Source: a virus
Taxonomy: Duplodnaviria; Caudoviricetes
DNA: 52,249 nucleotides
IMG/VR virus record: IMGVR_UViG_3300045282_000164
Location: 1 to 52,249 of that record
Reading direction: 5' to 3' (one strand)
How positions within the stretch are numbered: the stretch's first letter is position 1; each line of letters begins with the position of its first letter. The translations under genes were made by a program, and so were the position numbers. A model generated the notes under the pieces. That model was not told where the DNA came from and searched no databases. It saw nothing but the letters and a program-made list of their open reading frames with translations. Positions 1-47,554 of the stretch are shown here, piece after piece.

Positions 1-200
1 GGACAAGTTACCAGGGCACAACTTGCCGGGAACGTCTTTCAAAAGTTGGTGGAACGCTCAGGCAAGGGCCAAGTATTCGATCCCGTCAAAGCTGTGGCTG
101 TGTTCAAGCAGATGGACCCCGAGTTAAGAACGCGTTTGTTTGGTTCAAGTGCAGCAGAAATCACACAGGGCTTAGAGACAATGGCGATCGCTACGGGCAA
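1..200. repeat. 200-bp direct terminal repeat, left copy
   Basis: 1-200 matches 52050-52249 except G79 vs T52128. Confidence 0.97.
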
Positions 201-1077: not shown

Positions 1078-1123
1078 AAGGGCTGTCCTGTGATCACAGC
1101 ATGGGATGGCCCTTTTTCTTTTT
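1078..1123. terminator. Probably bidirectional intrinsic terminator
   Basis: Stem AAGGGCTGTCCTGTG/CATGGGATGGCCCTT with an A-tract before and a T-tract after. Confidence 0.7.
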
Positions 1124-1140: not shown

Positions 1141-3624
1141 ATGAAACTATTTCACACAACTTCTAACTCTTCGCCGCCGCCGATTATTAGCCTGTTCCTT
1201 CGGCGTTGCCCATCGGCAATTTGCCGGCTCATAGTCGCCATTATTATTGATCCTATCAAGCTGCAATCCCGCAGGACGATTCCCCATATCAGCAAAGAAG
1301 TTTTCGAATCTTTGCCAACGGTCACACACTTTAATGCCTCGTCCTTTGTATCTGTCGGCCGCATGATTGCGCGGGTTCTCGCAGCGATTGCGCATACCAG
1401 CCCATATTCTAAATTCGACGGAATTACTCATGCCGTGGCGAAAATTAAGTTTTTGAATCTTCTCTACTTTTACACATCCACAGCTTTTAATAGCATTCCA
1501 ATAGGTAAGATTGTTGGCGGCTACAGAAGTCAGCTTCCCACAATCACACCTACAAAACCACATGACGCGCCTCTGTGGACCTTGTCGTTCTGGACTCATT
1601 CCAATAACCACAAGCCGCCCAGAACGTTTGCCAGTCAAATCTTGCAACTTCATTTATTGTCCTTATTCCTTCTCTTGTTTTTACCATGTGTTAATGCTTT
1701 TGGTCAAACCGATACCGGGTTTTTTGTGAGGGCGGATTGCGGAACTTTAACTCCAACCAACAATCAAACCTTGTGTTTGCAATCGACTACGGTGAGCGGG
1801 AGAACTGCAGGTGTTGTTTATGTTTATACATCCGGTGCTTGGACTTCCACCTCGTCAATAGGTTCTGGGGACGTAACTGATGTGCTCGGCACCTCTTCAG
1901 AAATTACAAGCACTAATAGCGGCGGACCAGCTCCGACTCTTTCAATTGCAGATACCTTCCGAATCACAGGTCATGCTGTGACTGCTCCGGTCAAAACTGG
2001 TACGTCTCTTCCTGCTACATGCACAACAGGAGACTTGTTTTTCAAAAGTGACGCGACGGCAGGAAGTAACTTTTATGGATGCACGGGTACAAACACTTGG
2101 ACACTAGAAGGCGGGACTACCGCAGCGGCATCTAGTGTCACGTTTACACCTAATGGGACAATTTCTTCAGTTAACGTTCAATCCGCTGTGCAAGAAGTTA
2201 GGGATGAGGCGCAACCACTTGATGCTGACTTAACCGCCATTGCCGCCCTAGCGACCACTGGGTGCACGGCTAGAACAGCAGCAAATACCTGGGCCAACCG
2301 CACGCTTACCGGCACCACTGGCAACATCACAGTAACTAACGGTGATTGTGTGGCGGGTAATCCTACCTTTGACCTTGGCGCCACGGCAGTCCAGACTGAT
2401 CAATCGAATACCTGGACAACTGGCGATCAGAGCATGGCTGCCGCAGCATCTTGGACAATGCCGGTAGCTACGGGCGCAGCTCCTACGGCAAACGGCAGGT
2501 GTGCTTATGATTCAACCGCGAACCTAATTAAGTGCGGGTTTAACGGCACTACCCTCACGCTTTCCACAACCAGCGTGACACAACCGCTCAGCGCAATTTT
2601 AACATCAATGGCAGGTCTATCCGGTGGACCGCCAGTTAATGCTCAAATTCCCTATTTTACTGGCGCGACCACAGTGAGCTTGGCGCAGTTTGGCCTTTGC
2701 GTGGACAGCGGCGGCCAGCACGTAAACATCACTTCAGTTTCTCCGCTTACCTTTAGCTGTGGCACTTCAAGCACAGGCGGGATTAGCGGAGGGACAATCA
2801 ATAAATATTCGAAGTATTTAAGCGCCACGACTCTGGGGCCAGGGATCTCCACAGACGATGGGACCAATGTCACCATCGGCGGCGGCTTGATCGTCGGTGC
2901 CACTCCTTGGCTGATCGTGGACACTTCAGCCATTGCAGCCAGTGATAAAACCTGGACAGTCCTAAACTTCAGTGGAACGGTTCGGCCTTCGACGGGCGTA
3001 TTTACCCCTGGCAACATTGTAACAACCAATGCCAACGGGTTGTTGATTGATGGTGGCGCGGCTGGCGCAGGAACGTGGACCGATGCAAGTGCAAATACGG
3101 GAACAAATAAAATTCTAGTCGATTCACTTGCCGGTGGAACGAACACACTGACCCTTGGCATTAGCGCTTCCTTTGACGGTGGTTCACTCACGGCAGACGG
3201 CACTAACTGCCAAGACCCCGTTAAGGTCACGATAAACTCTGGGCCAGCTCAATATGCCATTTTGTGTGCAACGCCAAACAGCGCCCAATTCGATGCAGTT
3301 CTTATTGATCTTAAGCATGCGCTAGCAACGATTAAGGTGCGGCTCAAGGCAAACGATACTGTATCCACGCAAACCCTTGCGGGAACATTTAAAGCTCAAT
3401 GTAGAGCAACCGGGACAGCACCGAGCTCGACGTGGGGCAGCACCCAAACGGTGAGCATCACATTGACTACATTAAACACTACCTATGAGGGGTTGACGGC
3501 AGCCATCACTCCCAACGGCACATGCTCCGCTAATTCGGATCTTTACATCAGATATAACGCTACGGGGGGATCTAATTCAGCGACGACAAGAATTTTGGGG
3601 CTAGGGATAGAGCAGCAATCATGA
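1141..3624 (+). CDS. Tail-fibre-like protein with a signal peptide interrupted by an antisense HNH gene
   Basis: Fibre motifs QPLDADLTAIAAL, TISSVNVQSAVQEV and GTSLPATCTTGDLFFKSDA; Thr/Gly/Ser-rich; h-region LLSLFLLLFLPCVNAFG begins at 1654. Confidence 0.75.
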   Translation: MKLFHTTSNSSPPPIISLFLRRCPSAICRLIVAIIIDPIKLQSRRTIPHISKEVFESLPTVTHFNASSFVSVGRMIARVLAAIAHTSPYSKFDGITHAVAKIKFLNLLYFYTSTAFNSIPIGKIVGGYRSQLPTITPTKPHDAPLWTLSFWTHSNNHKPPRTFASQILQLHLLSLFLLLFLPCVNAFGQTDTGFFVRADCGTLTPTNNQTLCLQSTTVSGRTAGVVYVYTSGAWTSTSSIGSGDVTDVLGTSSEITSTNSGGPAPTLSIADTFRITGHAVTAPVKTGTSLPATCTTGDLFFKSDATAGSNFYGCTGTNTWTLEGGTTAAASSVTFTPNGTISSVNVQSAVQEVRDEAQPLDADLTAIAALATTGCTARTAANTWANRTLTGTTGNITVTNGDCVAGNPTFDLGATAVQTDQSNTWTTGDQSMAAAASWTMPVATGAAPTANGRCAYDSTANLIKCGFNGTTLTLSTTSVTQPLSAILTSMAGLSGGPPVNAQIPYFTGATTVSLAQFGLCVDSGGQHVNITSVSPLTFSCGTSSTGGISGGTINKYSKYLSATTLGPGISTDDGTNVTIGGGLIVGATPWLIVDTSAIAASDKTWTVLNFSGTVRPSTGVFTPGNIVTTNANGLLIDGGAAGAGTWTDASANTGTNKILVDSLAGGTNTLTLGISASFDGGSLTADGTNCQDPVKVTINSGPAQYAILCATPNSAQFDAVLIDLKHALATIKVRLKANDTVSTQTLAGTFKAQCRATGTAPSSTWGSTQTVSITLTTLNTTYEGLTAAITPNGTCSANSDLYIRYNATGGSNSATTRILGLGIEQQS
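1147..1653 (-). CDS. HNH homing endonuclease
   Basis: DLTGKRSGRLVV..WFCRCDCG..SCGC..IWAGMRNRC..YKGRGIKVCDRW..LDRINNNGDYEPANCRWAT; SD-like AAGGA upstream. Confidence 0.93.
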   Translation of the reverse strand: MKLQDLTGKRSGRLVVIGMSPERQGPQRRVMWFCRCDCGKLTSVAANNLTYWNAIKSCGCVKVEKIQKLNFRHGMSNSVEFRIWAGMRNRCENPRNHAADRYKGRGIKVCDRWQRFENFFADMGNRPAGLQLDRINNNGDYEPANCRWATPKEQANNRRRRRVRSCVK

Positions 3625-4241
3625 AGATCTTACCAGTTCTTTTCATCCTTCTATTCCCTTCGCTGGCATCGGCAGCTTGCCACGTTTACTTTATGCCGGC
3701 GGTTAGCACTTCTGATTTTGTTCAACCTAAGTACAGTTTCTCCACATCAGGCTCGTTTATACCATTCGGTGGACAAGGAATTTATTTAGCTGCCGCTGAT
3801 ATAGGCAGTACTGAGGACGCAGCTTTAACAGCCAATGCCGATGTTACCGCCGTTCCCGATAACCTAGATCAGCAGATAGGCGCGGGAGCTCTCGCTAAGA
3901 TTCAAACCGCACTAGAGAATCGCAACATTCCTGCTGGCTGGTTGACGGCGGCAACGACATACAGATCAGCATTGAGAACCATTGTTAATATGTTCAAATT
4001 CTTTCAGAAGTTTATCGCCGTGACCCATATCACCGTGCCGGTCATTACCGGGGCGATCACTCTAAACAGCACATTCAATTCACTCAGCGCAGCCAATCGC
4101 CAGCGGCTCATCGATACGGCTACGGCGTTAAGCTTTGACACTTCCGGGCTCACGGGCGCGGCAACCATGCGCCAGATTCTCAAGGCCATAGCCGATCAAT
4201 ATGGCTCTCCACCAGTAGTCTTGGGGTGTGTGACGATATGA
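3621..4241 (+). CDS. Exported protein, possible fibre accessory
   Basis: Signal peptide MKILPVLFILLFPSLASA; 2 Cys near the two ends of the mature chain; ATGA coupling to the upstream gene. Confidence 0.75.
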   Translation: MKILPVLFILLFPSLASAACHVYFMPAVSTSDFVQPKYSFSTSGSFIPFGGQGIYLAAADIGSTEDAALTANADVTAVPDNLDQQIGAGALAKIQTALENRNIPAGWLTAATTYRSALRTIVNMFKFFQKFIAVTHITVPVITGAITLNSTFNSLSAANRQRLIDTATALSFDTSGLTGAATMRQILKAIADQYGSPPVVLGCVTI

Positions 4242-4918
4242 AAAGGCTTTTTCTCTCTCTAATTTTTGTCCTGTGCTTGGCTACCAACTCATGGGCGGTT
4301 ACAGCATCGGACACTTTAGCATCCTATGGCGATGGCAACTTGAGCGTACTCAATGCCAACTGGCCGATCCTAAATATCGACGAGGGTTCTTTGTTTATTG
4401 CGTCGGGATCGGCAGATGTGGATGTTTTCTTTGGTAGTAACTATCGAGGTGATATTTCGCCCGGTGCTAGCCAGTTCTCTCAGGTGCAAATAACACAGCT
4501 TAACGTAGTTAACGAGGCATGGGTTAAACTATTCGTCAGAGCGCAGGCGGCTGATTCGATCACCGATACTTATATCTGTGTCGCTGTACGTAACGCTCAA
4601 GGTTCTCCCTACAGCATAGGGACGACATCTGTAATCTCAGTTGTTTCAGGTACTATCGAATCGCTGATTGCCTCGGAGTCATCAACGAGTTGGTCGGCAG
4701 GCGACACCCCGAAGTGTGCCATGACCGGGACAACCATCACCATGTACCGCAATGACGTTGCATTGCTCAGCACCACGAATGGCAGCTACGCCACCGGTAA
4801 TGTTGGGTTTGGATTATTTTCAGATCGTTACTCTGGCGGAGATACGTTCCTCAATAACTGGCTTGGGGGTGATATCTCGGTTGTTGGGACCGCTAGGCAT
4901 AGGCCGGTGATTCAATGA
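4238..4918 (+). CDS. Exported beta-sandwich (lectin/ConA-like) protein
   Basis: Signal peptide MKRLFLSLIFVLCLATNSWA; GTTITMYRND..YATGNVGFG strand pattern. Confidence 0.7.
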   Translation: MKRLFLSLIFVLCLATNSWAVTASDTLASYGDGNLSVLNANWPILNIDEGSLFIASGSADVDVFFGSNYRGDISPGASQFSQVQITQLNVVNEAWVKLFVRAQAADSITDTYICVAVRNAQGSPYSIGTTSVISVVSGTIESLIASESSTSWSAGDTPKCAMTGTTITMYRNDVALLSTTNGSYATGNVGFGLFSDRYSGGDTFLNNWLGGDISVVGTARHRPVIQ

Positions 4919-7512
4919 AGAGGCTTCTACTTGTTTTATTTTGGTTGATTTTATCGTTGCCAGTTTTCGCGCAGGCAACGACACGCTACGTCATTCCTAG
5001 CGCTGGGGGTACGGGATGCTCAAACGGTTCAACTAATTATCATGTTGGAAGCAACACATGCAGCGGTGGGGCGGATCAGGTCGTTTATACCACGATCCTC
5101 AATGGCCTTAACGCGATGAACGCTTGCGACACATTGACTATCCGCGGGGGAAATTACACCGAGAAGCTCGACGTGACGGGCTTTACTTGGCCATGCTCCT
5201 CTTATAATTCTCCGACTCTAATCCAGGGACAGCCCGGCGAAACAGTTACCTTAACCCCAGCTAGCCCAGATGCGACGATTCACACCAATGCCGAAGGCAC
5301 ATGGCCGGCGATAGCTCAAACTTACATAATATTTAAACATATCAAAATCGACGCACGAAACCTGAACCCACATTTCGGAAACTCTGCTACTTCTATTAGT
5401 CACTTTACGCGATTTGATGACATTGATATCTGCTGCGTTGGCGATAATGCGGGAACAAACCGGATAAGTGGGATCGGGGTTCAAGTCGGAGATGATGTAG
5501 AGATCATCAACTCGAATATTCACGATTACGGATTGAATTTTTTTCAACCCTTCAACTATACCCAAGCCGATATTGATAACGGCACGGCGCTCGGCGGGTT
5601 TGGGTTTTATGGCGTCTATTGGGGTGGCGCTAATGGAGTGCTGCGCAATACTACGTTTTCAAACATCGGTGCGTTTTGCATCCATCAGTACTCTTTTACC
5701 CATGTTTCAGGCCTGGATAATTTTTTGGTGGAAGGTAACACCTTCAAGAATTGTGGCGGGTATATGTACAATTCCCCAGCTTCGGGAACTCCTCCAGGCT
5801 TTATCTTTCCTGGCCAGAAAGCTAGCACTGTGGCAATTCTAACTTCGGGCCATAACGCTATCTTTAGGAACAATCTATTAAATGGAAACCTCTTTGGTGA
5901 AGGAGTGGTCGTAACGTTTTTCTCGTCGGGCTTCCAGATTTATAACAACACAATCAGGGGTATGAGCACGTCAGGTATTTTTGTTGATGGTGGTCCGACA
6001 AATTTGTCCATTCACGATAATATTGTAGTGGACAACGGAATTAATTTCTCTAACGGCGACAATCCTGGAACTCCCACATACACTAGAAACCTGTGCTCCG
6101 CCGCTGGCGGGACACCATCCCCGCAATGCACCGGCAGTCTTACAGAACTATCGTCAGCCACCTTTGTAAACAATACGAATGATTTTCATTTGAAGGCTGG
6201 CAGCAAAGCAAGAAATGCCATTCCTTTAGGGCAATGCTTGACAAGTGTTGACGTTACTGGACTTGCTCGCCCACAGGAAAATTTATGTGACATTGGTGCT
6301 TACGAGTTTGCTAGTGCGAGTAATGTACCGCCGACAATTACCATTGGGGCAATCGCTGGTCTGTCGTCGTGCACAACAGTTGGTTCCGTGACCACCTGCA
6401 ATACGGGCAACTCGACAATAATTCCGCTGGGCACAGCAACGGATTCAGACGGGACTATTTCGAGCGTTGCTTATACCTGCAATAGATGTGGGGCTAGCAG
6501 CGGAGCCGGATCAGGAAGTGCGTCCTTGACCCTACCAAACTGGACTATCGGAACCATTCCCGTTCCGATTCAGCTCCATGCGGGGATAAACACTCTCATC
6601 ATAACAGCAACAGATAATGGTGGGGCTGCAACTGCACGGACTTTAGTTGTAAATTATACTCCTACTTTTCCAGGTAATACGATGGCTCTAGGCCTAGCCT
6701 GTGATGAGGGATCGGGCACAACTTGTGCTGATTCCAGCGGCAATGGCAACACGGCGACCCTCATCAGTGGAGCTACGTGGACCACGAGCGGTCGATTCGG
6801 CAAAGGGGTTGTATTAGATGATGCCCTACATCAATACATCAACGTGCCTGATTCTAACTCACTAGATTTTACTCAGTCATTCACGCTCTCTCTTTGGGCG
6901 TTCCCAACAGCTTCCATGACCGGCTTCAACGCCTTAATAACTAAAGGCGATGCGCTTCAACGATTGTACGCCAGCGCATCAAGCGATAGCTGCTCTGTAA
7001 CAGGCAACGGCAGTCCCTTTGGAATCTTCAAAACTAACGGGATTCTAGGCCCTGACTTTCAAGTTTGCGGAACTCCACCACTGGCAATAAATCAATGGTC
7101 ATATGTGGCCCTGACATATAACGGTTCTGTACTCAGCTTGTGGGTTAATGGCGTGTTGGCCAATAGTATCTCCGGTGCCGGGTTAATGGAACCAAGCGCG
7201 TTACCTTGGCAGATCGGCGCCAGCCAGTTCGGTGAATATTTTAAGGGGGTCGTGGATGAAGTAAGATTGTATAACTATGCCATCCCACGCTTCAGCGGCG
7301 TGCAGAACGCGGCAGGCATCGGCGGCGCATGTATAGCCGGGACTATTCCAGGATCGCCCACGGCAGGCAACATTTATTTCCTTGACCCGCCGTCAATAGT
7401 CAGGGACATGGCCTGCGGTATCACGCCAGGGGCGCCGCCACTAGCAATCAAAATCCCAGCCAGCGCAACAGGGTTAAAGCTATCAGGTGTAGTCAAGTTT
7501 GGATCGAGGTAA
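4915..7512 (+). CDS. Exported receptor-binding/depolymerase-like protein: beta-helix, choice-of-anchor-Q-like, Ig-like and LamG domains
   Basis: Signal peptide MKRLLLVLFWLILSLPVFAQA; IYNNTI repeats; DFHLKAGS..CDIGAYEF; DEGSGTT.ADSSGNGN..WSYVALTYNG..FKGVVDEVRLYN. Confidence 0.85.
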   Translation: MKRLLLVLFWLILSLPVFAQATTRYVIPSAGGTGCSNGSTNYHVGSNTCSGGADQVVYTTILNGLNAMNACDTLTIRGGNYTEKLDVTGFTWPCSSYNSPTLIQGQPGETVTLTPASPDATIHTNAEGTWPAIAQTYIIFKHIKIDARNLNPHFGNSATSISHFTRFDDIDICCVGDNAGTNRISGIGVQVGDDVEIINSNIHDYGLNFFQPFNYTQADIDNGTALGGFGFYGVYWGGANGVLRNTTFSNIGAFCIHQYSFTHVSGLDNFLVEGNTFKNCGGYMYNSPASGTPPGFIFPGQKASTVAILTSGHNAIFRNNLLNGNLFGEGVVVTFFSSGFQIYNNTIRGMSTSGIFVDGGPTNLSIHDNIVVDNGINFSNGDNPGTPTYTRNLCSAAGGTPSPQCTGSLTELSSATFVNNTNDFHLKAGSKARNAIPLGQCLTSVDVTGLARPQENLCDIGAYEFASASNVPPTITIGAIAGLSSCTTVGSVTTCNTGNSTIIPLGTATDSDGTISSVAYTCNRCGASSGAGSGSASLTLPNWTIGTIPVPIQLHAGINTLIITATDNGGAATARTLVVNYTPTFPGNTMALGLACDEGSGTTCADSSGNGNTATLISGATWTTSGRFGKGVVLDDALHQYINVPDSNSLDFTQSFTLSLWAFPTASMTGFNALITKGDALQRLYASASSDSCSVTGNGSPFGIFKTNGILGPDFQVCGTPPLAINQWSYVALTYNGSVLSLWVNGVLANSISGAGLMEPSALPWQIGASQFGEYFKGVVDEVRLYNYAIPRFSGVQNAAGIGGACIAGTIPGSPTAGNIYFLDPPSIVRDMACGITPGAPPLAIKIPASATGLKLSGVVKFGSR

Positions 7513-7515
7513 ATT

Positions 7516-7890
7516 ATGACCAATGACCAGATTACGGCGATCATAACGGCACTGGCAACAATAGCGACGACTATCTATGCAGCGTGGAAAGCGTCTCAAG
7601 CTTCGAAAGCAGCGAGTCAGGCTGTTACGGCAGTCAAGGCTGTAGACGTTAAGGTTGATACGGTTACAGACCAAAACGACAAGCAGCAGGACAAACTTGA
7701 CGAGGTTCACAGCCAATGGAATTCACGCCTTGATGAATGGAAAAGGGACCAAGCTAAGGCTACGGCGGCGGCAATTGCAACGGCACTAGAGGCGGGCAAG
7801 AAGATAGGTGCTGATGAACAGCGAGCCATAGCCGAACAAAAGGCCAAGGATGTTTTGCTTGCGGTAGACGATAAGGAGAAAAAACAATGA
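7516..7890 (+). CDS. Membrane-anchored coiled-coil protein (holin or i-spanin candidate)
   Basis: N-terminal TM followed by a coiled coil; lysis-region context. Confidence 0.55.
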   Translation: MTNDQITAIITALATIATTIYAAWKASQASKAASQAVTAVKAVDVKVDTVTDQNDKQQDKLDEVHSQWNSRLDEWKRDQAKATAAAIATALEAGKKIGADEQRAIAEQKAKDVLLAVDDKEKKQ

Positions 7891-8087
7891 GTCTATTCAT
7901 TCGTGTTCTTTATGTATTGCTAGCTATCGCCTTTGTGGTGTTGGCTTACTACGTGGTGATTTGGGTACTAGCAATGTTAGGGATTATGGTGCCGGACCAT
8001 ATCCTCAAAGTTGTCTTTGTGATCCTGGGGTTGCTGGCTGTGATCGGTGCACTTAGCGGTCGGTTTGATAATTTCTGGAGGGCTTAA
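7887..8087 (+). CDS. Two-TM small membrane protein (holin candidate)
   Basis: 66 aa with two hydrophobic helices. Confidence 0.6.
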   Translation: MSLFIRVLYVLLAIAFVVLAYYVVIWVLAMLGIMVPDHILKVVFVILGLLAVIGALSGRFDNFWRA

Positions 8088-8479
8088 TGGCTAAGCTAAC
8101 CGGACAGTGGGTGTGGGTGGATAAACGGTTAACCAAACTAGAAAAAGTACTGGTTAATCAGGTGATGGGGATTGGGAAAATTGTTGCAGACATTAATAGA
8201 AAGGTAACTAAAATGGCTGATGATCTAAAGGCAGCAAATGACGCATTGGACGCAAGTGCGCAGTCTCTTACAGACATAAGCGCGAGTCTCAGTAACATCG
8301 TGGCTGATGAAGCCAAGTTGAGTACGCAGATTGCCGACTTGCAGGCTCAACTGGCAGCTGGCGGCGGTGTCTCGGCGGCAGATATGGCAGCATTGGCTAG
8401 TAAAGCCCAGGCTAACCAAGCCGCGTTAAAGTCAGTAGCAGATGCAGCAAAGGCCGCAGCGGATGCGATACCTGATTAA
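8087..8479 (+). CDS. Ala-rich coiled-coil protein
   Basis: Heptad pattern; possible alternative start MADDLK near 8213. Confidence 0.6.
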   Translation: MAKLTGQWVWVDKRLTKLEKVLVNQVMGIGKIVADINRKVTKMADDLKAANDALDASAQSLTDISASLSNIVADEAKLSTQIADLQAQLAAGGGVSAADMAALASKAQANQAALKSVADAAKAAADAIPD

Positions 8480-8783
8480 ACTTCTCTGTCTTGCTGGAGG
8501 TTTGGGAATAGCAATTAATGCCCAGGCCTTCAGCGACACCGCAACCCTCACCTGGACAAACAACGATACCAGCCAAGCTATCAGGGGCTCACGCATAGAG
8601 GTATCCAAGGATGGCGGCCAAACCTGGGCAGTGGCATATACAGTAGGGCGCGGGGTAACCACAAGGATTGTGCTGCTCCAGGCTGGGCAAAGGTGGTGCT
8701 ATAGGGTCAGGGCTTATACTAATGCTGCGCAATCAGATCCATCAAACGTCACTTGTGCTACAGTGACAGTGACGACAGGTTAG
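8463..8783 (+). CDS. Exported fibronectin type III protein
   Basis: Signal peptide; ATLTWTNN..WCYRVRAYT..SDPSNVTCAT. Confidence 0.8.
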   Translation: MRYLIKLLCLAGGLGIAINAQAFSDTATLTWTNNDTSQAIRGSRIEVSKDGGQTWAVAYTVGRGVTTRIVLLQAGQRWCYRVRAYTNAAQSDPSNVTCATVTVTTG

Positions 8784-8791
8784 GGAGGGTT

Positions 8792-9208
8792 ATGGTTAAA
8801 CTAAGTGTCATTTTGGCCGTGTTCTTGTTCGCTTCAGTTGCCGAGGCTCAGATCGTGACCTGTGTTCCCACTTACGCCAAGGGATGTGTGCTTACCTTGT
8901 CTTGGCAAAACAACCCTGCACCAGATGGTGCCTATCTAGGCTTGCATGTTTGGCGCAAGCTCAACACGACAACTTACCCAACGACACCATTTGCCACACT
9001 AGGTCCTAACATTACGAGCGTAGTGGACACAACCCTGGCGCAAAGTCCTACCGTAGCCAATAATTATACCTACGTGGTGACGGCCTTTAATAGCTCAGTT
9101 GTTGGCATTAACCAGGAATCACAGGTGTCAAACGAGGTTGCCTACACCGTGCCAGTGTTGCCTGTGATTAATGTTCCTATCGCGCCTTCTAATGCGAGGT
9201 TACAATGA
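8792..9208 (+). CDS. Exported fibronectin type III protein
   Basis: GGAGG SD; signal MVKLSVILAVFLFASVAEA; LTLSWQNN..YTYVVTAFN..ESQVSNEV. Confidence 0.8.
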   Translation: MVKLSVILAVFLFASVAEAQIVTCVPTYAKGCVLTLSWQNNPAPDGAYLGLHVWRKLNTTTYPTTPFATLGPNITSVVDTTLAQSPTVANNYTYVVTAFNSSVVGINQESQVSNEVAYTVPVLPVINVPIAPSNARLQ

Positions 9209-9507
9209 AATATTTATGGATTCTGTTGCTGTTATGCTCGGGTTGCGTCGATATGTTTACCGCCAAAACACAAGCCACTTACACCATATCACCGGACGGC
9301 AAGACAATCTCTTACATCTCGAATAAAGAACAGCAAGGGTTAAAACTCCACCTTGAGGAAGTCAACGGCAAACCGACTGTCGTAGACATCTCCGTCGATA
9401 AAGCCGACACACAGCAAGAGGCAATCGCAGCGGCGCTCCAGACTCAGCTCGGGTTACAGCAGATTATTAAGGGATTGTTAGATAAGGCAGCGCAGGGAGG
9501 AAAGTGA
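9205..9507 (+). CDS. Lipoprotein, spanin candidate
   Basis: Lipobox-like LLLLCSG-C; lysis-region context. Confidence 0.65.
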   Translation: MKYLWILLLLCSGCVDMFTAKTQATYTISPDGKTISYISNKEQQGLKLHLEEVNGKPTVVDISVDKADTQQEAIAAALQTQLGLQQIIKGLLDKAAQGGK

Positions 9508-10127: not shown

Positions 10128-10237
10128 AGGAGTCCGTGGGGCTGGCTTGCCACGTGCCCGGCGCAGTTCCGGCGGTTGTAAGCCCTCCCCACGTATTAGC
10201 TAATAGAACTACGTTCGCATATTAAACTAAGTTGTCA

Positions 10238-10669
10238 ATGATTTTGGCTAATCTTGAATCGTTTTTAATTCGTCACGAGGGGAACCGGCTCAAACCTTAC
10301 CTTGATACCGTGGGCAAGATCACCATTGGGATAGGCCGTAACCTTACCGATGCTGGTATCTCGCCGGCCGAATCTCATTACCTGCTGTGCAACGACATAA
10401 GCAAGACAATCGCCCAATGTCGGCAACAGCTTCGGTGGTTTGACTCGCTTAATGGACCTCGGCAGATGGTAATCATAGATATGGTTTTCAATATGGGGAT
10501 TGGCCGTTTTCTAGGCTTTCATGATACTATCGCTGCGATTGAAGAGGGAGATTACAAGCTTGCAGCTTCTCGGATGCTTGACTCGAAATGGGCATTGCAA
10601 GTTGGGCAGCGCGCGCTTGAAGACGCAAACATATTTTTGACCGGGGAATATGTTGAAGGGACTGTTTAG
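10238..10669 (+). CDS. Endolysin, GH24 / T4-type lysozyme
   Basis: HEGNRLKPYLDTVGKITIGIGRNL (E-D-T triad); DMVFNMG; MLDSKWALQVGQRA. Confidence 0.93.
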   Translation: MILANLESFLIRHEGNRLKPYLDTVGKITIGIGRNLTDAGISPAESHYLLCNDISKTIAQCRQQLRWFDSLNGPRQMVIIDMVFNMGIGRFLGFHDTIAAIEEGDYKLAASRMLDSKWALQVGQRALEDANIFLTGEYVEGTV

Positions 10670-11756
10670 GGTCTGTGGGCACGTCTTTCGCAGACACCGT
10701 TGATTGAGTCGCTATAAACCCACCGCTTGCTCTCTTGCACTCGCTCGGCAGATGGGGCGGCAAGCAGTTTAGAGAAGCAACGTATTGCCCTGCAAGCTGG
10801 CCATTGTCATTTAAACCGTTGATATCATACTGCGCAATGAGTCCATTGATCGTAGGCGGCAAGCTAATTAGATAGAACGCACCATCATCCACGAGATACC
10901 AACCGAACTGTCCTATCTCATTGGTGTAAAGCATGACGCTTTGCCCCAAGTTATTCAGATCCACTATCTCAACACTCGAGCCCCCAGGCATAAAGTCAAA
11001 TGAGGGCGGGAATGGAAAATCCCAAATCCCGTTGTCATAGATAAACCAATAATGGGCCACGGTGTTGAACGTGTTGGGGTCGTACATGGTGAAGTCACCC
11101 AAAATCTGGTTGTGATTATTAATTGCCCACAAGGTTGTATAGCTATTCGCCACGGGCACATCAAACGGCAGATATAGATTTTGCGAGGAGTTATTGTACC
11201 AGCAAAAACCATGGATCCGGGTAGGACCGAACTGGTTAGGGTTTGTGAACGGGTTGACGTACTGGCCGCACACATCACCGTAATCGTTGGCACCAAAGCC
11301 GAGGGTGCTCTGAGCGCCTGGAAACATTAGCAGGGTGTATTGACCGATCTTGTTAAACAAAAACCCCATCTCATTACCGGCACTATCCGCGCATAGGCCG
11401 GCTGCATCGGCGCGGGCGTTGATTGTAGTAGCTCCTACCTGAGTAGGCCCGCCACCACAGTCAAGCGTTCTAGTTTGGCCATTGGTGTAGCGGACGGCGT
11501 TGGCCATGACTAGATCACCGTTGTTGTTGATGTCCTGTAAGGCGACCGCGGTCGTTTGGATAGTGTAAGGTATGACTTGAGAATAGGCAGGGATGGCGAT
11601 CAACAGCAGCAAGACAGGTAATAGTAGTTTGGCAGCGTCCTTTTTCGCTGCCTCTTTCATTTCCTCCCGCCAAACATGCACGAGCCCATTAAACACTTGA
11701 ATCAGGTTAGCCATATTATGACCCCAGGCTTCCAAATCCTTTAAAATCTGTTCCAT
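10527..11756 (-). CDS. Exported beta-propeller-like (HAF-type repeat) protein
   Basis: Repeats DINNNGD, GANDYGDVCG, AINNHNQILG, DLNNLGQ and GLNDNGQLAG; h-region LLLPVLLLLIAIPAYS. Confidence 0.75.
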   Translation of the reverse strand: MEQILKDLEAWGHNMANLIQVFNGLVHVWREEMKEAAKKDAAKLLLPVLLLLIAIPAYSQVIPYTIQTTAVALQDINNNGDLVMANAVRYTNGQTRTLDCGGGPTQVGATTINARADAAGLCADSAGNEMGFLFNKIGQYTLLMFPGAQSTLGFGANDYGDVCGQYVNPFTNPNQFGPTRIHGFCWYNNSSQNLYLPFDVPVANSYTTLWAINNHNQILGDFTMYDPNTFNTVAHYWFIYDNGIWDFPFPPSFDFMPGGSSVEIVDLNNLGQSVMLYTNEIGQFGWYLVDDGAFYLISLPPTINGLIAQYDINGLNDNGQLAGQYVASLNCLPPHLPSECKRASGGFIATQSTVSAKDVPTDPKQSLQHIPRSKICLRLQARAAQLAMPISSQASEKLQACNLPLQSQR

Positions 11757-24051: not shown

Positions 24052-24219
24052 ATGAAGAGGTTACTTCAGGCAATAATTCTAGGTACGGTTTTTATGGGTA
24101 GCCTTGCCTATGCGCAGTGCACGACCCAGAGTTTTTACGATACCCGCACGGGCAGGATGACGGTGTGCACCACCTGCTACGATGCGAACGGGAACCCTAT
24201 TTCCACTATTTGTAGTTGA
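24052..24219 (+). CDS. Small secreted 4-Cys peptide, 55 aa
   Basis: MKRLLQAIILGTVFMGSLAYA|QCTTQSFYDTRTGRMTVCTTCYDANGNPISTICS; GGAGG SD. Confidence 0.75.
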   Translation: MKRLLQAIILGTVFMGSLAYAQCTTQSFYDTRTGRMTVCTTCYDANGNPISTICS

Positions 24220-25205: not shown

Positions 25206-25329
25206 AGTGGCTGGGTGACGATTATGATGAATCGAGCGGTGGATTTAGCCTTGGCGAGAGTATTTTTCTTGGCGGCCTTATAGGAACTTGTTTGGGTGTC
25301 GCGGTTCTGTTGTTGGCCCTATTGTTTTC

Positions 25330-34997: not shown

Positions 34998-35085
34998 CTA
35001 TCCCCCCGGCTCTTGGCCCTTTGCGTGGCGGGTGGAACTCCTCCCCATTCGCTGCGCCGCCAGGGGTACAAATGAAAGGACAGGT

Positions 35086-37188: not shown

Positions 37189-39393
37189 ATGGCGCTCACT
37201 GTAAATCACGTTTTCACCAATCCGGTTGCGGACGGCACAATCACGTCAATCGTTCGCCCCTCAGACTGGAACAGCGCCCACAAACTCGTTTACAACATGA
37301 TCGATGGTATTGGCGTATCCGATACCACCTATTTCAGTGGTTCGGTTATCTTTTCCAATCAGGCCAATATCACCATCAACTCGTCAGTCAACGGCGCATC
37401 GCAGTACGTGCAGTTTAGCGTGGGTGCGGCTGGCTTAACTACCGCAATGGCGAGCAATCGCGGCTCTGATTTTGTACAGGCCACGGCAGGATTTAACGGA
37501 ACCAATTGCAGCGGGACCATTGCGTCAAACTCGGTTTCTGTGAGCGTTGGCAACTATCTAACTACAGCCGATCTCTCTGCCAATAGTTCTAAGTATGTAC
37601 AGAACTGGAAGCTAACCGGGAACACAGCGGGCACTACTTCAAGCGCACAGGGAACCGACCTTTGGTTTGATGGCGGCAACAGCATCACGGTATCCGGCAA
37701 CAGTAATACCATAAGGCTATCAGTAGGCGCCTATATCACTACGGCACGGGGCAGCACCGACGCAATTGGACTCAATACGGCCGGGACCAACATGACATGG
37801 ACAGCCAATAGCGCGGGGCTGTCTATTAACGCTGGTGGCTATGCAGGAACAAATACCGCGGCAACTGGCGCGTCTGTCACACTCAACACCTCGGGCATCT
37901 CCATTAATTTGCCCGCATATCTAACTACAGCAGATCTATCCGCCAACACCTCAAAGTTTGTCCAAAACTGGAAATTGACAGGCAACACGTCAGGAACAAC
38001 CAGCAGTGCTCAAGGGACTGATTTGTGGTTTCAAGGTGGGAATAGTCTGACCGTCTCTGGCAGTAGCAACAGTGTTGTCTTCTCGGTGGGTGCCTACATT
38101 ACTACTGCCGATCTATCCGCGAACAGTTCTAAGTACGTCCAGAATTGGAAGCTCACCGGGAACACATCTGGCACCACAAGCAGCGCACAAGGAACCGATC
38201 TTTGGTTTCAGGGTGGCAATAGTCTCACGGTTTCAGGAAGCAGCAATAGCATTGTGTTTTCCGTAGGGGCATATCTAACAACGGCAATGGCATCAAACCG
38301 TGGGACTGATTTCGTGCAGGGCACAGCGGGGTTTAACGGCACGAATTGCAGCGGCACGATTGCATCAAATTCGATTTCTGTCAGTGTGGGTGCCTACATT
38401 ACCACGGCGGATTTATCTGCCAATAGTTCTAAATATGTCCAGAATTGGAAACTAACAGGGAATACGGCAGGTACTACAAGCAGTGCTCAAGGCACCGATC
38501 TTTGGTTTTCGGGTGCGGGTGCCATGACTGTTTCCGGCAGCAGCAATACTATTGTGCTTAGCCCTCCCGCAAGTTCGAGCCTGATTGGATCGAGCGGTAT
38601 TTCGCTAAGCAGTGCGGGCTCAACAATTACTATTTATCAGCCGGTAGCATCTCAATTTGATCCCGTCAGGGCCGCACCTGTAACCAATTCCACTTTGGGT
38701 CAATCAACGCTTTATTTCTTCCCATTCGATAATGGTGACATGCTATCCGCTTCCCGCGTTAACTTCTTTCATTCAATTGCGTTTACCTACTCGGGGGCGC
38801 CAGCTAACTCAACCGCATGGCTTGCGGCAGGTTATGGCCTCTACACTAGAGGAACAGGAGCAAGCACCGATAGGATCTCACTGCTTACTAGCTATTCAAT
38901 GGCCTATATAAGTGGCAGTGCTTCGAGTAGCACGCGTCTGTCTGTGACTAACTATTGGCAGGTATCGAATGGAACTACCCATTCCACGACTCAATACGGA
39001 CAAAATAATGTGACGGCAGGAACTTATCTCACAAGCTCGATTGGTGGCTTTCGCGTAGTCGCTTTCCCGGTAAGTTCTTTGCTAACTCCCGGCCGTTATT
39101 GGCTTGGCTATTCAGTTCAAAGCTCCAGCCAGGGAGCCTCGTTGATTTTTGGCCATAGCGTCATGCAGGCGCAGTTTTCAAACCAGCTTGCTTTCCAGCC
39201 GTTCAATGTGGTTTCGGCTGCGTCTAATGCCTCATTCTGGGATGCGTCAAACGGGTTTGGAATTTACTCCGCACAGTCGGCAGCGTGGCCGAATAGCATT
39301 CCTTTAACATCAGACTCAATCAGGGCGGCGCTGGTCAACACGGTGCCAATATTTAACTTTAGCGGGATTAGCCAATCGAGTAATATTCTATGA
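37189..39393 (+). CDS. Ser/Thr/Gly-rich fibre protein with modular internal repeats
   Basis: VRPSDWNSAH N-terminus; four 59-aa-type and two 41-aa repeats. Confidence 0.8.
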   Translation: MALTVNHVFTNPVADGTITSIVRPSDWNSAHKLVYNMIDGIGVSDTTYFSGSVIFSNQANITINSSVNGASQYVQFSVGAAGLTTAMASNRGSDFVQATAGFNGTNCSGTIASNSVSVSVGNYLTTADLSANSSKYVQNWKLTGNTAGTTSSAQGTDLWFDGGNSITVSGNSNTIRLSVGAYITTARGSTDAIGLNTAGTNMTWTANSAGLSINAGGYAGTNTAATGASVTLNTSGISINLPAYLTTADLSANTSKFVQNWKLTGNTSGTTSSAQGTDLWFQGGNSLTVSGSSNSVVFSVGAYITTADLSANSSKYVQNWKLTGNTSGTTSSAQGTDLWFQGGNSLTVSGSSNSIVFSVGAYLTTAMASNRGTDFVQGTAGFNGTNCSGTIASNSISVSVGAYITTADLSANSSKYVQNWKLTGNTAGTTSSAQGTDLWFSGAGAMTVSGSSNTIVLSPPASSSLIGSSGISLSSAGSTITIYQPVASQFDPVRAAPVTNSTLGQSTLYFFPFDNGDMLSASRVNFFHSIAFTYSGAPANSTAWLAAGYGLYTRGTGASTDRISLLTSYSMAYISGSASSSTRLSVTNYWQVSNGTTHSTTQYGQNNVTAGTYLTSSIGGFRVVAFPVSSLLTPGRYWLGYSVQSSSQGASLIFGHSVMQAQFSNQLAFQPFNVVSAASNASFWDASNGFGIYSAQSAAWPNSIPLTSDSIRAALVNTVPIFNFSGISQSSNIL

Positions 39394-41070: not shown

Positions 41071-41079
41071 GGAGATTTT

Positions 41080-42735: not shown

Positions 42736-43022
42736 TGCACAAGTTTGCTCTTACCGCAGGCATCCCACACCGCATCAATGGCAAGTGGCCAATCCTGGGC
42801 TTTCATTGGGGGTTTATCCAACCTGGCGAGTTTTGGCTACGCATTTTTTTGATCTGGCTACGCGTTGATATTTGTCTGGGTAAGCATTGGCCCTCGGTAG
42901 ATGTGCGGGAACATTGGAAACAGTTTAAGGGGGCGCAAAAACTATACAAGAAAACTGACGGTTTTGGATTCGATTACCTTGGTAGGCGGGAATATTATGA
43001 ACGGCAGTTAAAGTCATGTTAA
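42732..43022 (+). CDS. Hypothetical protein
   Basis: Coupled ORF. Confidence 0.5.
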   Translation: MMHKFALTAGIPHRINGKWPILGFHWGFIQPGEFWLRIFLIWLRVDICLGKHWPSVDVREHWKQFKGAQKLYKKTDGFGFDYLGRREYYERQLKSC

Positions 43023-43732
43023 ACCCGACTACGTTATACCTATATCTATATGCCGGTGGCACGCCGCCGTCCAGGCCACCGCAGACCTTTTACCAGGCGC
43101 AATACTCACTCAAGCCAGGGATTGATGAAATGATTTTGCCCCATACCCTACAGACGGCAAGCATAGTGCCGGCGTTTACCCCAAGTTGGAATACCACGGT
43201 ATGGGCAACGGTGATCACAGATACTTATTTGAAGGTTAGATTCGGCGTTCAAACGCCGCTCAAGGCTGCAACGCTAGACTATTCAGTCAATCGCGGGACA
43301 GGGGTAGCCGTAACATCAGGGGTCACAACCTGGACAGTTAGCCACAACTTTAACGATGCAACGGCCGTGATTCTCTTTGCCTCCAATTGGAACACAACAA
43401 TTAGAGTTAGAACCAAAGCGGCCAATTCAACTATTGTTGATTTTAGCACCCCGGCACCAACAGGAGCTTACCTTTATTATGGTTTACACCAGGACGATTC
43501 AGACATCACATCAACTGAGGTTGTGTCTGATGCGGCTAAAACTCACACAATACGTCACAACGCATCCAGGGCTTTTCTCCCGATCTTCGTACAGCCAAGC
43601 TGGTACACAACCGTTACGTGGAAAGAAAAGTTGGACCTTAATCAGACAGTCATAAGCTTTGGCACTCCGCCAAGTGGAGCGGCAACAATGGATACGCGAG
43701 TAAAGGCTATTGGGAACATGGTGGTGTCATGA
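43016..43732 (+). CDS. Structural protein with three tandem beta domains
   Basis: PSWNTTV, SNWNTTI and PSWYTTV repeats. Confidence 0.65.
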   Translation: MLNPTTLYLYLYAGGTPPSRPPQTFYQAQYSLKPGIDEMILPHTLQTASIVPAFTPSWNTTVWATVITDTYLKVRFGVQTPLKAATLDYSVNRGTGVAVTSGVTTWTVSHNFNDATAVILFASNWNTTIRVRTKAANSTIVDFSTPAPTGAYLYYGLHQDDSDITSTEVVSDAAKTHTIRHNASRAFLPIFVQPSWYTTVTWKEKLDLNQTVISFGTPPSGAATMDTRVKAIGNMVVS

Positions 43733-47129: not shown

Positions 47130-47554
47130 TTGTTCGGCCAAAGGTACGATTTGCCACCAATGAAGATGCAAGAGATGTTCAAGAGATTCTAAATGAAAAT
47201 GGACAAATACCTGGCGGGCATGACTGGTCAGACCTCGGTTACTCATGGCTTGTGGCAGAGTATGACGACACAATTATTGGATGCGTGCAGGTCATTGTCG
47301 GGAAGCCCTTCGGCCACATCGGTTTTCTTGCCGTTCTCCCCGGCTATTACAATGGTGGCGCTGGGGCTGTTCTCTGGCGGGCCGCTGAGAATCTTTTGGC
47401 AAACAGTGGATGTGACGGTTATACCGGCATGACTACCAATGAACAGGTGTTAGATAAGTTTCCCAAGCGCGGCGGCATTATTTTTGGCGATCCAGTAAGA
47501 CTCCTTTTTAAGCGCGTATATCGAAAAGGGATTGATTATGGGCGGCGGCTCTAA
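47126..47554 (+). CDS. GNAT acetyltransferase
   Basis: VRFATNEDA..LVAEYDDTIIG..IGFLAVLPGYYNGGAGAVL. Confidence 0.85.
   Translation: MIVRPKVRFATNEDARDVQEILNENGQIPGGHDWSDLGYSWLVAEYDDTIIGCVQVIVGKPFGHIGFLAVLPGYYNGGAGAVLWRAAENLLANSGCDGYTGMTTNEQVLDKFPKRGGIIFGDPVRLLFKRVYRKGIDYGRRL

What the first reader, a model, noticed from the sequence alone, without database searches (positions are those of the whole stretch)
1141..9208. Tail-fibre/receptor-binding module predicted to be Sec-exported and disulfide-bonded
Seen: six proteins here (1141, 3621, 4238, 4915, 8463, 8792) have basic-hydrophobic-small-residue signal peptides. My counts of Cys in the mature chains are 14, 2, 2, 22, 2 and 2, all even and mostly in neighbouring pairs. 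The 1141 protein carries typical phage fibre motifs. In its QPLDADLTAIAAL module, which I recall as TTG-hydrophobic-x-ART..TNGDGVAGNPT elsewhere, it reads TTGCTART..TNGDCVAGNPT, as if a Cys pair had been acquired. The structural proteins at 34026-47129 lack signal peptides. Established: tailed-phage fibres normally fold in the reducing cytoplasm, and even-Cys bias marks DsbA-oxidised exported proteins. Inference: this phage builds its adsorption apparatus (fibre, beta-helix/LamG adhesin, FN3 domains) in the periplasm and joins it to particles during or after lysis, which fits its position next to the lysis genes. I know of no characterised example, but cannot exclude prior reports.
Basis: partly seen in the sequence, partly recalled or inferred. 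Interest (0 to 1): 0.88.

Follow-up and report, generated by a model that had tools for sequence, protein, structure and literature searches.

The report
Phage tail fibres carrying secretion signals
A soil phage and many of its relatives put export signals and paired cysteines on their tail-fibre and sugar-binding proteins, which suggests these parts mature outside the cytoplasm and meet the virus particle only at lysis, a route not described for tailed phages.

Summary
The window is a complete, apparently virulent 52-kb podovirus-like genome. Five of the six stated ORFs do start with Sec/signal-peptidase-I-type leaders. The sixth start (1141) is wrong: its first 168 codons are antisense to an HNH endonuclease gene, and the fibre more likely starts at TTG 1642 or 1657, with a leader that has lost its basic N-region. 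All Cys counts are confirmed (14, 2, 2, 22, 2, 2).

The pattern holds across the family. 64 of 119 fibre homologs carry leaders, including nearly all close ones. 59 of those 64 have even mature Cys counts, and cysteines appear and disappear in pairs. 57 of 64 expose Gln at +1, the Bacteroidetes Q-rule.

The module order (leader-fibre, small leader protein, leader beta-helix protein, leader FN3-like protein, lysis genes) recurs in eight related contigs. One relative fuses leader, T7-type tail anchor and this fibre body. Ten of 149 other T7-anchor proteins also carry leaders, one of them at the gp17 position of a podovirus contig.

Export and oxidative folding are well supported. Attachment to virions after holin action is plausible (about 0.5) but unproven. 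No report of it appeared in six literature searches.

The parts
1078..1114 (+). Terminator-like hairpin (15 pairs) with T-runs on both sides. It separates the structural operon from the HNH gene, the leader module and the lysis unit.
   Evidence: sequence
1147..1653 (-). HNH homing-type endonuclease gene, divergent from the 5' end of the fibre gene and overlapping it.
   Evidence: phrog_374 E 4.9e-61. The same antisense N-extension is seen in homolog P0017.
1642..3624 (+). Fibre protein, 660 aa if the start is TTG 1642 (alternative: TTG 1657). It has a leader-like N-terminus, a small disulfide N-domain, a shaft with the shared fibre motif, and a C-terminal CBM-like beta-sandwich. The mature chain has 14 Cys.
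3621..4241 (+). 206-aa leader protein of unknown fold, with 2 Cys (near the N-terminus and near the C-terminus). Its start overlaps the fibre stop codon.
4238..4918 (+). 226-aa leader protein with 2 Cys and no family hit. Homologs in related loci carry leaders.
4915..7512 (+). 865-aa leader protein: right-handed beta-helix, choice-of-anchor Q domain and Laminin_G_3/ConA-like lectin domain. The mature chain has 22 Cys and Gln at +1.
7516..8087 (+). Two small membrane proteins, 7516-7890 and 7887-8087, that are holin candidates.
   Evidence: phrog_263 E 9.9e-5 for 7516; hydrophobic sequence of 7887
8463..8783 (+). 106-aa leader protein, FN3-like, with 2 Cys.
   Evidence: fn3 at 21.7 bits, below the cut-off
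8792..9208 (+). 138-aa leader protein, FN3-like, with 2 Cys and Gln at +1.
   Evidence: The homolog in L004 matches fn3 at 37 bits.
9205..9507 (+). 100-aa lipoprotein-like protein in the lysis cassette (spanin or exclusion candidate). Homologs of 44-49% identity were found in 3 related loci.
10232..10669 (+). Endolysin (lysozyme type) without a leader or SAR segment.
   Evidence: phrog_7 E 3.8e-21
10527..11660 (-). Opposite-strand 377-aa leader protein with 8 Cys, Gln at +1 and a repeat-rich sequence. It looks like a moron (independently expressed accessory gene).
   Evidence: no family hit
24052..24219 (+). 55-aa leader mini-protein with 4 Cys and Gln at +1.
37189..39393 (+). Leaderless 734-aa repeat-rich candidate for a conventional tail fibre, with 2 Cys. 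Its N-terminal motif resembles those of the leaderless distant homologs P0100 and P0083.
43016..43732 (+). Leaderless 238-aa protein made of small beta-domains. One of them is similar to the C-terminal domain of the L024 T7-anchor stub.
   Evidence: 34% identity, E 3e-7
47532..52249 (+). Internal virion / DNA-ejection proteins directly upstream of the module. The last gene continues into 1-894 across the 200-nt terminal overlap.
   Evidence: phrog_8003 and phrog_4287 for 47532; overlap

Best explanation
The region is a late transcription unit of a virulent podovirus-like phage whose host is probably a member of Bacteroidota. Its glycan-binding proteins are made as Sec pre-proteins: a fibre with a CBM-like tip, a small partner protein, a 226-aa protein of unknown family, a beta-helix/LamG protein, and two FN3-like proteins. 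Signal peptidase I cleaves them, usually exposing Gln, and they fold with disulfide bonds in the periplasm.

No outer-membrane or T9SS sorting signal was found, so they would stay periplasmic until the neighbouring holin/endolysin cassette fires. At that point they would meet the cytoplasmic, Cys-poor particles. I take the fibre to be a genuine tail-fibre-family receptor-binding protein that docks on tails only then. The beta-helix/LamG and FN3 proteins may act attached or free.

Shown: the leaders, the Cys pairing statistics, the synteny, and the existence of leader + tail-anchor fusions in relatives. Inferred: actual export, cleavage, oxidation, and docking after holin action. The confidence of 0.5 is for the whole statement including docking; for export and oxidative folding alone I would say about 0.85.
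For: Leaders and cysteines
- Leaders are at 3621, 4238, 4915 and 8792 and at 8463 (by eye).
- All 8 leader proteins in the window have even mature Cys counts.
- Of 119 fibre homologs, 64 carry leaders. Of those, 59 of 64 have even Cys counts (range 6 to 24) and 57 of 64 have Gln at +1. The leaderless ones show 28 of 55 even counts and a third of the Cys density.
- Cys columns co-occur in pairs with Jaccard 1.0 for 15/15, 20/20 and 22/22 sequences, and for the window-only pair.
- Leaders and even Cys counts also appear in 11 of 11 and 10 of 11 beta-helix homologs, in 6 of 7 homologs of 4238 (the 7th is an 83-aa fragment), and in 3 of 3 homologs of 8792.

Context
- The same module order recurs in L003, L004, L007, L011, L018, L021, L024 and L026.
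- The Q-rule is reported as typical of Bacteroidetes (mean Q-value 71%; PMC5837995, abstract and section 16).
- The window shows no integrase or resolvase, and no relative of the fibre was found in the GTDB genome collection.
- No T9SS or other sorting domain was found.

Fibre identity
- The shared fibre motif occurs in cyanophage structural proteins.
- The model's C-domain matches CBM6/35/36/61 and tailspike C-domains (E 4e-5 to 5e-4, TM-score normalised to the target 0.5-0.6).
- BFVD matches are phage tail-fibre proteins.

Tail docking in relatives
- L009 has a leader, then a T7-type anchor (own HMM E 4.3e-40; phrog_1640 E 3e-28; Pfam PF03906 only 20.3 bits), then a body 55% identical to the window fibre.
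- 10 of 149 other anchor proteins carry leaders placed exactly where the initiator Met would be. 9 of those 10 have even Cys counts, against 49 of 90 leaderless ones of at least 350 aa (Fisher one-sided p 0.029).
- One of the ten, P0137, lies at the gp17 position in L034, after tail protein phrog_376 (E 5.6e-163) and an internal virion protein. A GGGAGG Shine-Dalgarno sequence precedes the leader's ATG.
- In L024 a leaderless PF03906 stub (32.1 bits) directly precedes the leader-fibre gene.
- A 3:3 complex of the stub's C-domain with the fibre N-domain got weak support only: score 0.36, best of 3 controls 0.00. The mark was reached by 58 of 80 solved complexes and 2 of 110 mismatched pairs, but at a score of 0.60 or under by only 7 of those 80 and by both mismatches. 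Runs agree in at least 61% of contacts and the partner's pLDDT is at least 84.
Against: - No experiment, no SignalP run and no cultured relative: the fibre has no match among 50,697 phage records.
- The window's own fibre leader lacks a basic n-region and its start codon is uncertain.
- The window has no detectable T7 anchor, so its docking partner is unknown.
- Leaderless fibre-like proteins (37189, 46365) and a leaderless beta-helix protein (34026) are encoded in the structural module, so the particle may be complete without this module.
- In 4915, 4238, 8463 and 8792 the domain starts right after the cleavage site, with no docking module.
- A terminator-like hairpin groups the module with the lysis genes rather than the virion genes.
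- 3 of 9 full-length members of the 3621 family lack leaders.
- Cys-parity counts are not phylogenetically independent.
- Disulfide geometry could not be measured, because the tools return no model coordinates.
- The complex prediction is weak by the tool's own standard.
- Only 1 of 4 leader-anchor proteins queried could be placed on a viral contig.
Confidence: 0.5

Rival explanations
1. The proteins are exported but never join virions. They would be periplasmic or lysis-released accessory factors: free lectins and a depolymerase that clear the host's polysaccharide, or receptor-masking or receptor-destroying proteins that block superinfection and stop progeny from sticking to debris. This would be analogous in logic to T5 Llp or Cor (recalled from memory).
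For: - In 4915, 4238, 8463 and 8792 the domain starts right after the cleavage site, with no docking module.
- 4915 carries a choice-of-anchor Q domain, which is typical of bacterial surface proteins.
- The module is separated from the virion operon by a terminator-like hairpin and interleaved with lysis genes.
- Leaderless fibre candidates exist elsewhere in the genome.
- Further leader proteins lie in non-structural places: 24052 and the opposite-strand 10527.
- P. gingivalis prophages encode Q-rule leader proteins that were read as host-surface modifiers (PMC10367356, passages seen).
Against: - The fibre family includes a leader + T7 tail-anchor fusion (L009), and an anchor domain has no known role other than docking on tails.
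- In L034 the only fibre seen at the gp17 position carries the leader.
- The fibre's N- and C-terminal modules are swapped around a conserved shaft, as in virion fibres.
- The phage looks virulent.
Confidence: 0.3
2. The hydrophobic N-termini are not cleaved export signals. They could be membrane anchors, assembly tags or gene-calling artefacts. The proteins would fold in the cytoplasm as ordinary fibres, and their cysteines would oxidise only after release.
For: - No dedicated predictor or experiment was available.
- The window's fibre leader lacks a basic n-region.
- My heuristic gave 2 false positives among 139 leaderless anchor proteins.
- The PMC10367356 authors take some phage 'signal peptides' (those of major capsid proteins) to be cleaved by the prohead protease rather than to be export signals.
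Against: - Canonical n/h/c regions with A-x-A sites recur in about 64 fibre homologs and in every module protein across eight loci.
- Gln at +1 in 57 of 64 matches a host-specific signal-peptidase-I rule.
- In the 3621 and anchor families the leader is grafted exactly in front of the normal N-terminus.
- Even, co-varying cysteines track the presence of the leader.
Confidence: 0.1
3. These are lysogenic-conversion or moron genes of a temperate phage, expressed from the prophage to remodel the host surface.
For: - The opposite-strand gene 10527 looks moron-like.
- There is a precedent in P. gingivalis prophages.
Against: - No tyrosine or serine recombinase in a genome rated complete.
- No relative of the fibre in 185,579 species genomes, and none of 10527 either.
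- The genes are translationally coupled, with overlapping stops and starts, to late and lysis genes on the same strand.
Confidence: 0.05

Closest known systems
T7 gp17-type tail fibres and tailspikes (Pfam PF03906, Phage_T7_tail N-terminal anchor)
   Same: The fibre sits at the same genome position, after the internal virion proteins and before the holin. It has the same modular build of N-module, shaft and C-terminal receptor-binding domain. One relative (L009) carries the anchor itself, and L024 encodes it as a separate stub.
   Different: Every close member carries a Sec-type leader and 6-24 paired cysteines. The window's own fibre has a different N-module and no anchor. T7 gp17 is taken, from general knowledge and not from any call, to have no leader and to be assembled in the cytoplasm.
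Secreted and SAR endolysins (for example Lys44 of Oenococcus phage fOg44)
   Same: These are late proteins of tailed phages that use the host Sec system and wait outside the cytoplasm until holin action (review PMC6116005, passages seen).
   Different: Those are lysis enzymes. Here the exported proteins are fibre, lectin, beta-helix and FN3 proteins, while the endolysin itself (10232) has no leader.
Q-rule signal-peptide proteins of Porphyromonas gingivalis prophages (PMC10367356)
   Same: These are phage-encoded proteins with signal-peptidase-I leaders that expose Gln, read as adaptation to a Bacteroidetes secretion pathway.
   Different: They are five genes of unknown function in temperate phages, interpreted as host-surface modifiers. 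They are not a fibre module in an apparently virulent podovirus. That paper's Supplementary Data 4 could not be read.
Lambda Lom/Bor, T5 Llp and Cor (recalled from memory, not tested)
   Same: These are exported phage proteins encoded beside tail-fibre or receptor-binding genes.
   Different: They are small outer-membrane proteins or lipoproteins that act on the host. They share no fibre architecture or tail-anchor homology.
Filamentous-phage coat proteins pIII/pVIII, and in vitro tailspike or fibre addition in P22 and T4 (recalled from memory)
   Same: The first are virion proteins made with leaders. The second shows that fibres and spikes can join finished particles late.
   Different: Inoviruses assemble at the membrane and are not tailed. 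P22 and T4 parts are cytoplasmic.

Membership tests
Sec / signal peptidase I substrates | N-terminal basic n-region, uncharged h-region of 7-15 residues, and small residues at -3 and -1 | tested here: met
   Own heuristic: met for 3621, 4238, 4915, 8792, 10527(-) and 24052. 8463 was judged by eye. The fibre has the h- and c-regions but no basic n-region. The heuristic's false-positive rate was 2 of 139 on leaderless anchor proteins. SignalP was not available.
Sec / signal peptidase I substrates | Actual translocation and cleavage | not testable with these tools
   Needs PhoA fusions or N-terminal mass spectrometry.
Bacteroidetes Q-rule substrates | Gln immediately after the cleavage site in most signal-peptidase-I substrates (Bacteroidetes mean 71%) | tested here: met
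   5 of 8 window leader proteins, or 6 if 8463 is cut two residues earlier. 57 of 64 fibre homologs, though these are related sequences. Only 4 of 11 beta-helix homologs. Reference values come from PMC5837995 section 16; a few non-Bacteroidetes, such as Ignavibacterium, also score high.
Disulfide-bonded extracytoplasmic proteins | Even number of cysteines that appear and disappear in pairs | tested here: met
   8 of 8 in the window; 59 of 64 homologs; paired columns with Jaccard 1.0; 9 of 10 leader-anchor proteins.
Disulfide-bonded extracytoplasmic proteins | Cys pairs within bonding distance in the structure | not testable with these tools
   Structure prediction returns no coordinates.
T7-type tail fibre (PF03906) | N-terminal tail-anchor domain | tested here: not met
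   Window: no match at E <= 1, and the best own-HMM hit has E 1.2. Relatives: L024 stub 32.1 bits. L009 has own-HMM E 4.3e-40 and phrog_1640 E 3e-28, but Pfam gives only 20.3 bits, below the cut-off.
Phage tail fibre (general) | Extended shaft with a shared fibre motif and a C-terminal receptor-binding domain | tested here: met
   phrog_697 at residues 173-261; the motif occurs in cyanophage structural proteins; CBM-like C-domain; BFVD tail-fibre matches. Trimer state was not tested.
Virion component | Presence in purified particles | not testable with these tools
   No cultured relative.
T9SS cargo | C-terminal sorting domain | tested here: inconclusive
   No NCBIfam or Pfam hit at E <= 0.01 for any module protein. 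A divergent sorting domain cannot be excluded.
Lysogenic-conversion moron | Carried by a temperate phage or prophage | tested here: not met
   No PF00589 or PF00239 match in a genome rated 100% complete. No relative in GTDB species genomes. Other integration systems were not searched.
Tailspike depolymerase (for 4915) | Right-handed beta-helix plus an N-terminal particle-binding domain | tested here: inconclusive
   Beta_helix at 36.3 bits. The helix region begins within a few residues of the cleavage site, so no N-terminal docking domain is evident. C-terminal docking was not tested.

The most novel reading that the evidence does not exclude
A two-compartment assembly route for tailed phages. 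Some podoviruses of diderm hosts (hosts with two membranes) would send their receptor-binding fibres and tailspikes, including ones with the T7-type tail anchor, through Sec into the periplasm. There they would be cleaved (pyroglutamate-capped in Bacteroidota) and disulfide-bonded. Infectious particles would be completed only after the holin breaches the inner membrane.
Probability: 0.45. Interest if true: 0.9.

Novelty: new variant of a known kind. Interest (0 to 1): 0.8.

Why it matters
All textbook tailed-phage morphogenesis is cytoplasmic, and the absence of signal peptides is even used as an argument that a fibre-like protein is of phage origin (PMC6199706, passage seen).

If fibres with tail anchors really are exported, three things follow:
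- The last assembly step is coupled to lysis.
- Oxidative folding becomes available to phage adhesins.
- Annotation pipelines, host-range engineering and expression of such receptor-binding proteins would need a periplasmic route.

The idea is directly testable with leader fusions and mass spectrometry. The Q-rule also offers a simple host-phylum marker for uncultured phages.

Tried and rejected

Searches that found nothing useful
- A single-sequence scan of viral contigs found nothing. The 27-sequence alignment was too diverse for pattern scans, so I used a 10-sequence one.
- Neither genome-contig scan found a relative (fibre; 10527), so the host could not be confirmed that way.
- The protein atlas gave only weak leads, all at 0.88 or below.
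- PDB sequence searches were empty.
- Pfam found nothing in five fibre homologs with other N-modules.
- Viral-contig scans for P0221, P0188 and P0159 found nothing.
- BLAST of the window's virion proteins against proteins upstream of the fibre in related loci gave one hit only.

The 3621 protein
- It folds confidently (pLDDT 86, pTM 0.81) but matched nothing: best BFVD E-value 0.18 and best VIA-align Z 3.3 over 48,161 chains. Its role stays unknown.

Literature
- Six searches found no report of Sec leaders on tail fibres or tailspikes of tailed phages.

Rejected idea
- A dual-start isoform in L034: the leader's ATG has a GGGAGG Shine-Dalgarno sequence, while the GTG at codon 25 has none.

Full report
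**What the window is.** The window is a whole IMG/VR virus record of 52,249 bp that CheckV rates complete. Its first and last 200 nt are the same apart from one mismatch, so the gene at 50580-end continues into 1-894. The genome encodes:
- a portal (phrog_1216) and an HK97-type capsid protein;
- DNA-ejection / internal virion proteins at 47532-894;
- an endolysin (phrog_7).

No tyrosine or serine recombinase was found. The nearest cultured phages share only about 25% identity in the portal. I read it as an apparently virulent, podovirus-like phage of an uncultured lineage.

**Checking the observation.** Five of the six leaders are real at the stated starts:
- MKILPVLFILLFPSLASA|A (3621)
- MKRLFLSLIFVLCLATNSWA|V (4238)
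- MKRLLLVLFWLILSLPVFA|Q (4915)
- MVKLSVILAVFLFASVAEA|Q (8792)
- a weaker one at 8463

The 1141 start is an artefact. Its first 168 codons are antisense to a minus-strand HNH endonuclease gene at 1147-1653 (phrog_374, E 4.9e-61). The hydrophobic segment followed by A-F-G|Q lies just inside the overlap with that gene's 5' end. TTG 1642 or TTG 1657 is therefore the likely start, and the leader has no basic n-region. Homolog P0017 shows the same antisense extension, so the same kind of endonuclease gene appears to have invaded the same site twice.

The mature Cys counts of 14, 2, 2, 22, 2 and 2 are correct. Two more leader proteins exist, 10527-11660 on the minus strand (8 Cys) and 24052-24219 (4 Cys), which makes 8 of 8 even. 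Among 42 leaderless genes of at least 100 aa, 10 have no Cys, 18 have an even count and 14 an odd count. None of the 18 greedy-set ORF starts between 34026 and 47554 is among the leader-like starts listed.

**The pattern belongs to the family, not just to this genome.** A search of 5.8 billion proteins gave 172 hits, of which 120 were listed. Of the 119 that are not the window's own protein:
- 64 have leaders by my heuristic;
- 59 of those 64 have even mature Cys counts (6 to 24, mode 10);
- 57 of 64 have Gln at +1.

The 55 without leaders are mostly distant proteins that share only a roughly 60-residue fibre motif. A few are truncated or mis-started close homologs, and two (P0016, P0024) have leaders the heuristic missed. 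Of these 55, 28 have even counts (11 of them zero), and their Cys density is 0.50 per 100 aa against 1.52. These counts are not phylogenetically independent.

The alignment gives a cleaner test. In 52 sequences, cysteines appear and disappear in pairs: 15 and 15, 20 and 20, and 22 and 22 sequences at Jaccard 1.0.

**Synteny.** Two viral and 29 metagenomic loci encode relatives. In L003, L004, L007, L011, L018, L021, L024 and L026 the order recurs:
1. Cys-free internal virion proteins, where the locus reaches that far upstream (L003 starts inside the fibre gene)
2. leader-fibre
3. a small leader protein
4. a leader beta-helix protein
5. a leader FN3-like protein (seen in L003, L004 and L011)
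6. holin-like genes
7. a lipoprotein
8. endolysin

Counts for the individual families:
- Beta-helix homologs: 11 of 11 have leaders and 10 of 11 have even Cys counts.
- 4238-like: 6 of 7 have leaders, all with even counts. The 7th is an 83-aa fragment.
- 8792-like: 3 of 3 have leaders, Gln at +1 and 4 Cys.

The virion proteins upstream of the fibre in those loci gave only one BLAST hit to the window's virion proteins, although the fibres are about 50% identical. The module is therefore either unusually conserved or mobile. In the window a strong terminator-like hairpin (1078-1114) separates the module from the structural operon.

**What the proteins are.**
- Fibre. The model (mean pLDDT 68; the N-domain and residues 500-660 are confident) has a C-terminal beta-sandwich. 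It matches carbohydrate-binding modules CBM6/35/36/61 and the C-domains of the K2-2 and CBA120 tailspikes (E 4e-5 to 5e-4). In BFVD it matches phage tail-fibre proteins. Its motif recurs in cyanophage structural proteins.
- 4915. It has Beta_helix and Laminin_G_3 domains plus a choice-of-anchor Q domain.
- 8463 and 8792. Both are FN3-like.
- 3621. It belongs to a small family in which 5 of 9 full-length members have a leader grafted in front of an otherwise identical N-terminus. The two members with a Cys near each end both have leaders. Its confident model matches no known fold.
- Sorting signals. No T9SS or other sorting domain was found in any module protein, so the proteins should stay in the periplasm until lysis.

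**Host.** Gln at +1 is the Bacteroidetes Q-rule. Bacteroidetes have a mean Q-value of 71%, the phyla compared there (Chlamydiae, Spirochaetes, most Chlorobi) lie mostly below 20%, and a few outliers such as Ignavibacterium score high (PMC5837995, abstract and section 16). The window scores 5 or 6 of 8. A Bacteroidota or similar host is therefore likely, but I could not confirm it from genomes.

**Are these virion parts?** This is the crux, and relatives give new evidence.

1. L024. A leaderless 204-aa protein with the T7 tail-fibre N-terminal anchor overlaps the start of the leader-fibre gene (PF03906, 32.1 bits; 36% identity to T7 gp17 residues 10-53).
2. Anchor distribution. That anchor domain occurs at the N-terminus of 8,857 representative proteins (E up to 0.001); among the 150 best listed, lengths run from about 100 to 1,700 aa.
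3. L009. Scanning all loci with an HMM of the anchor found one polypeptide that reads leader (MTHRFRYLLFAIFVAVSAPAFA|VV), then anchor, then a body 55% identical to the window's fibre (HMM E 4.3e-40; phrog_1640 E 3e-28).
4. Other anchor proteins. Among the 149 other best anchor proteins, 10 carry canonical leaders whose cleavage site replaces the initiator Met. PHROG profiles align from position 2. Of these, 9 of 10 have even Cys counts, against 49 of 90 leaderless ones of at least 350 aa (Fisher one-sided p 0.029). Several are beta-helix depolymerase-type tailspikes.
5. L034. One of the ten, P0137, lies on a 71.5% G+C viral contig directly after tail protein phrog_376 (E 5.6e-163) and an internal virion protein, which is the gp17 position. 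A GGGAGG Shine-Dalgarno sequence precedes the leader's ATG. Related contigs have leaderless anchor fibres with 1-6 Cys at that position.
6. Complex prediction. A 3:3 complex of the L024 stub's C-domain with the fibre N-domain got weak support only: score 0.36, best of 3 controls 0.00. The mark was reached by 58 of 80 solved complexes and 2 of 110 mismatched pairs, but at a score of 0.60 or under by only 7 of those 80 and by both mismatches. The runs agree in at least 61% of contacts and the partner's pLDDT is at least 84.

**Against virion membership for this window.**
- It has no detectable anchor.
- It encodes leaderless fibre-like proteins (37189, 46365) and a leaderless beta-helix protein (34026).
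- In four of the module proteins the domain starts directly after the cleavage site.
- The fibre's own leader is degraded by the HNH insertion.

**Verdict.** Export and oxidative folding are well supported; I put them at about 0.85. That the fibre then joins particles after holin action is the best single reading, at about 0.5. A free or receptor-masking role comes next at about 0.3.

**Literature.** Six searches found Sec leaders on phage endolysins and on prophage proteins of unknown function, but none on tail fibres or tailspikes of tailed phages. One paper treats the lack of signal peptides as a mark of phage origin.

Noticed in passing
window 1-200 and 52050-52249: The two ends are a 200-nt direct repeat with one mismatch (position 79). 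The record is therefore a complete genome assembled with an overlap, although IMG/VR classes it as 'linear'.
   Followed up: partly
window 1147-1653 (-) and homologs P0017/P0018: An HNH endonuclease gene sits divergently on the very 5' end of the fibre gene and removes the leader's basic n-region. An independent homolog shows the same antisense extension, which suggests a homing site at the fibre start.
   Followed up: partly
window 3621-4241: The model is confident (pLDDT 86, pTM 0.81) but has no structural match (best Z 3.3). The family exists both with and without leaders.
   Followed up: yes
L034 10001-12124 (P0137): A 71.5% G+C podovirus contig whose fibre at the gp17 position has a leader (Thr at +1, not Gln) and 10 Cys. 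The phenomenon may therefore not be limited to hosts in Bacteroidota.
   Followed up: partly
L011 1873-9279; L024 5674-9393; window 47532-50580: The internal virion proteins are almost free of cysteine (0 Cys in 2,468 aa in L011), in sharp contrast with the Cys-rich leader proteins next to them.
   Followed up: no
window 25288-25989: A 233-aa ORF with 13 Cys and a weak Beta_helix hit (20.8 bits, below the cut-off) lies just before the presumed large terminase gene. It has no leader.
   Followed up: no
window 47126-47554 and 40242-40913: An acetyltransferase-like gene (phrog_1249, E 0.005) and a methyltransferase-like gene (phrog_6636, E 1e-11) are embedded among the virion genes.
   Followed up: no
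window 37189-39393: The leaderless 734-aa protein contains several near-identical internal repeats of about 60 aa.
   Followed up: no
window 18531-18734: A small ORF has a leader- or TM-like N-terminus and Gln after a possible cleavage site. It lies in the early region.
   Followed up: no
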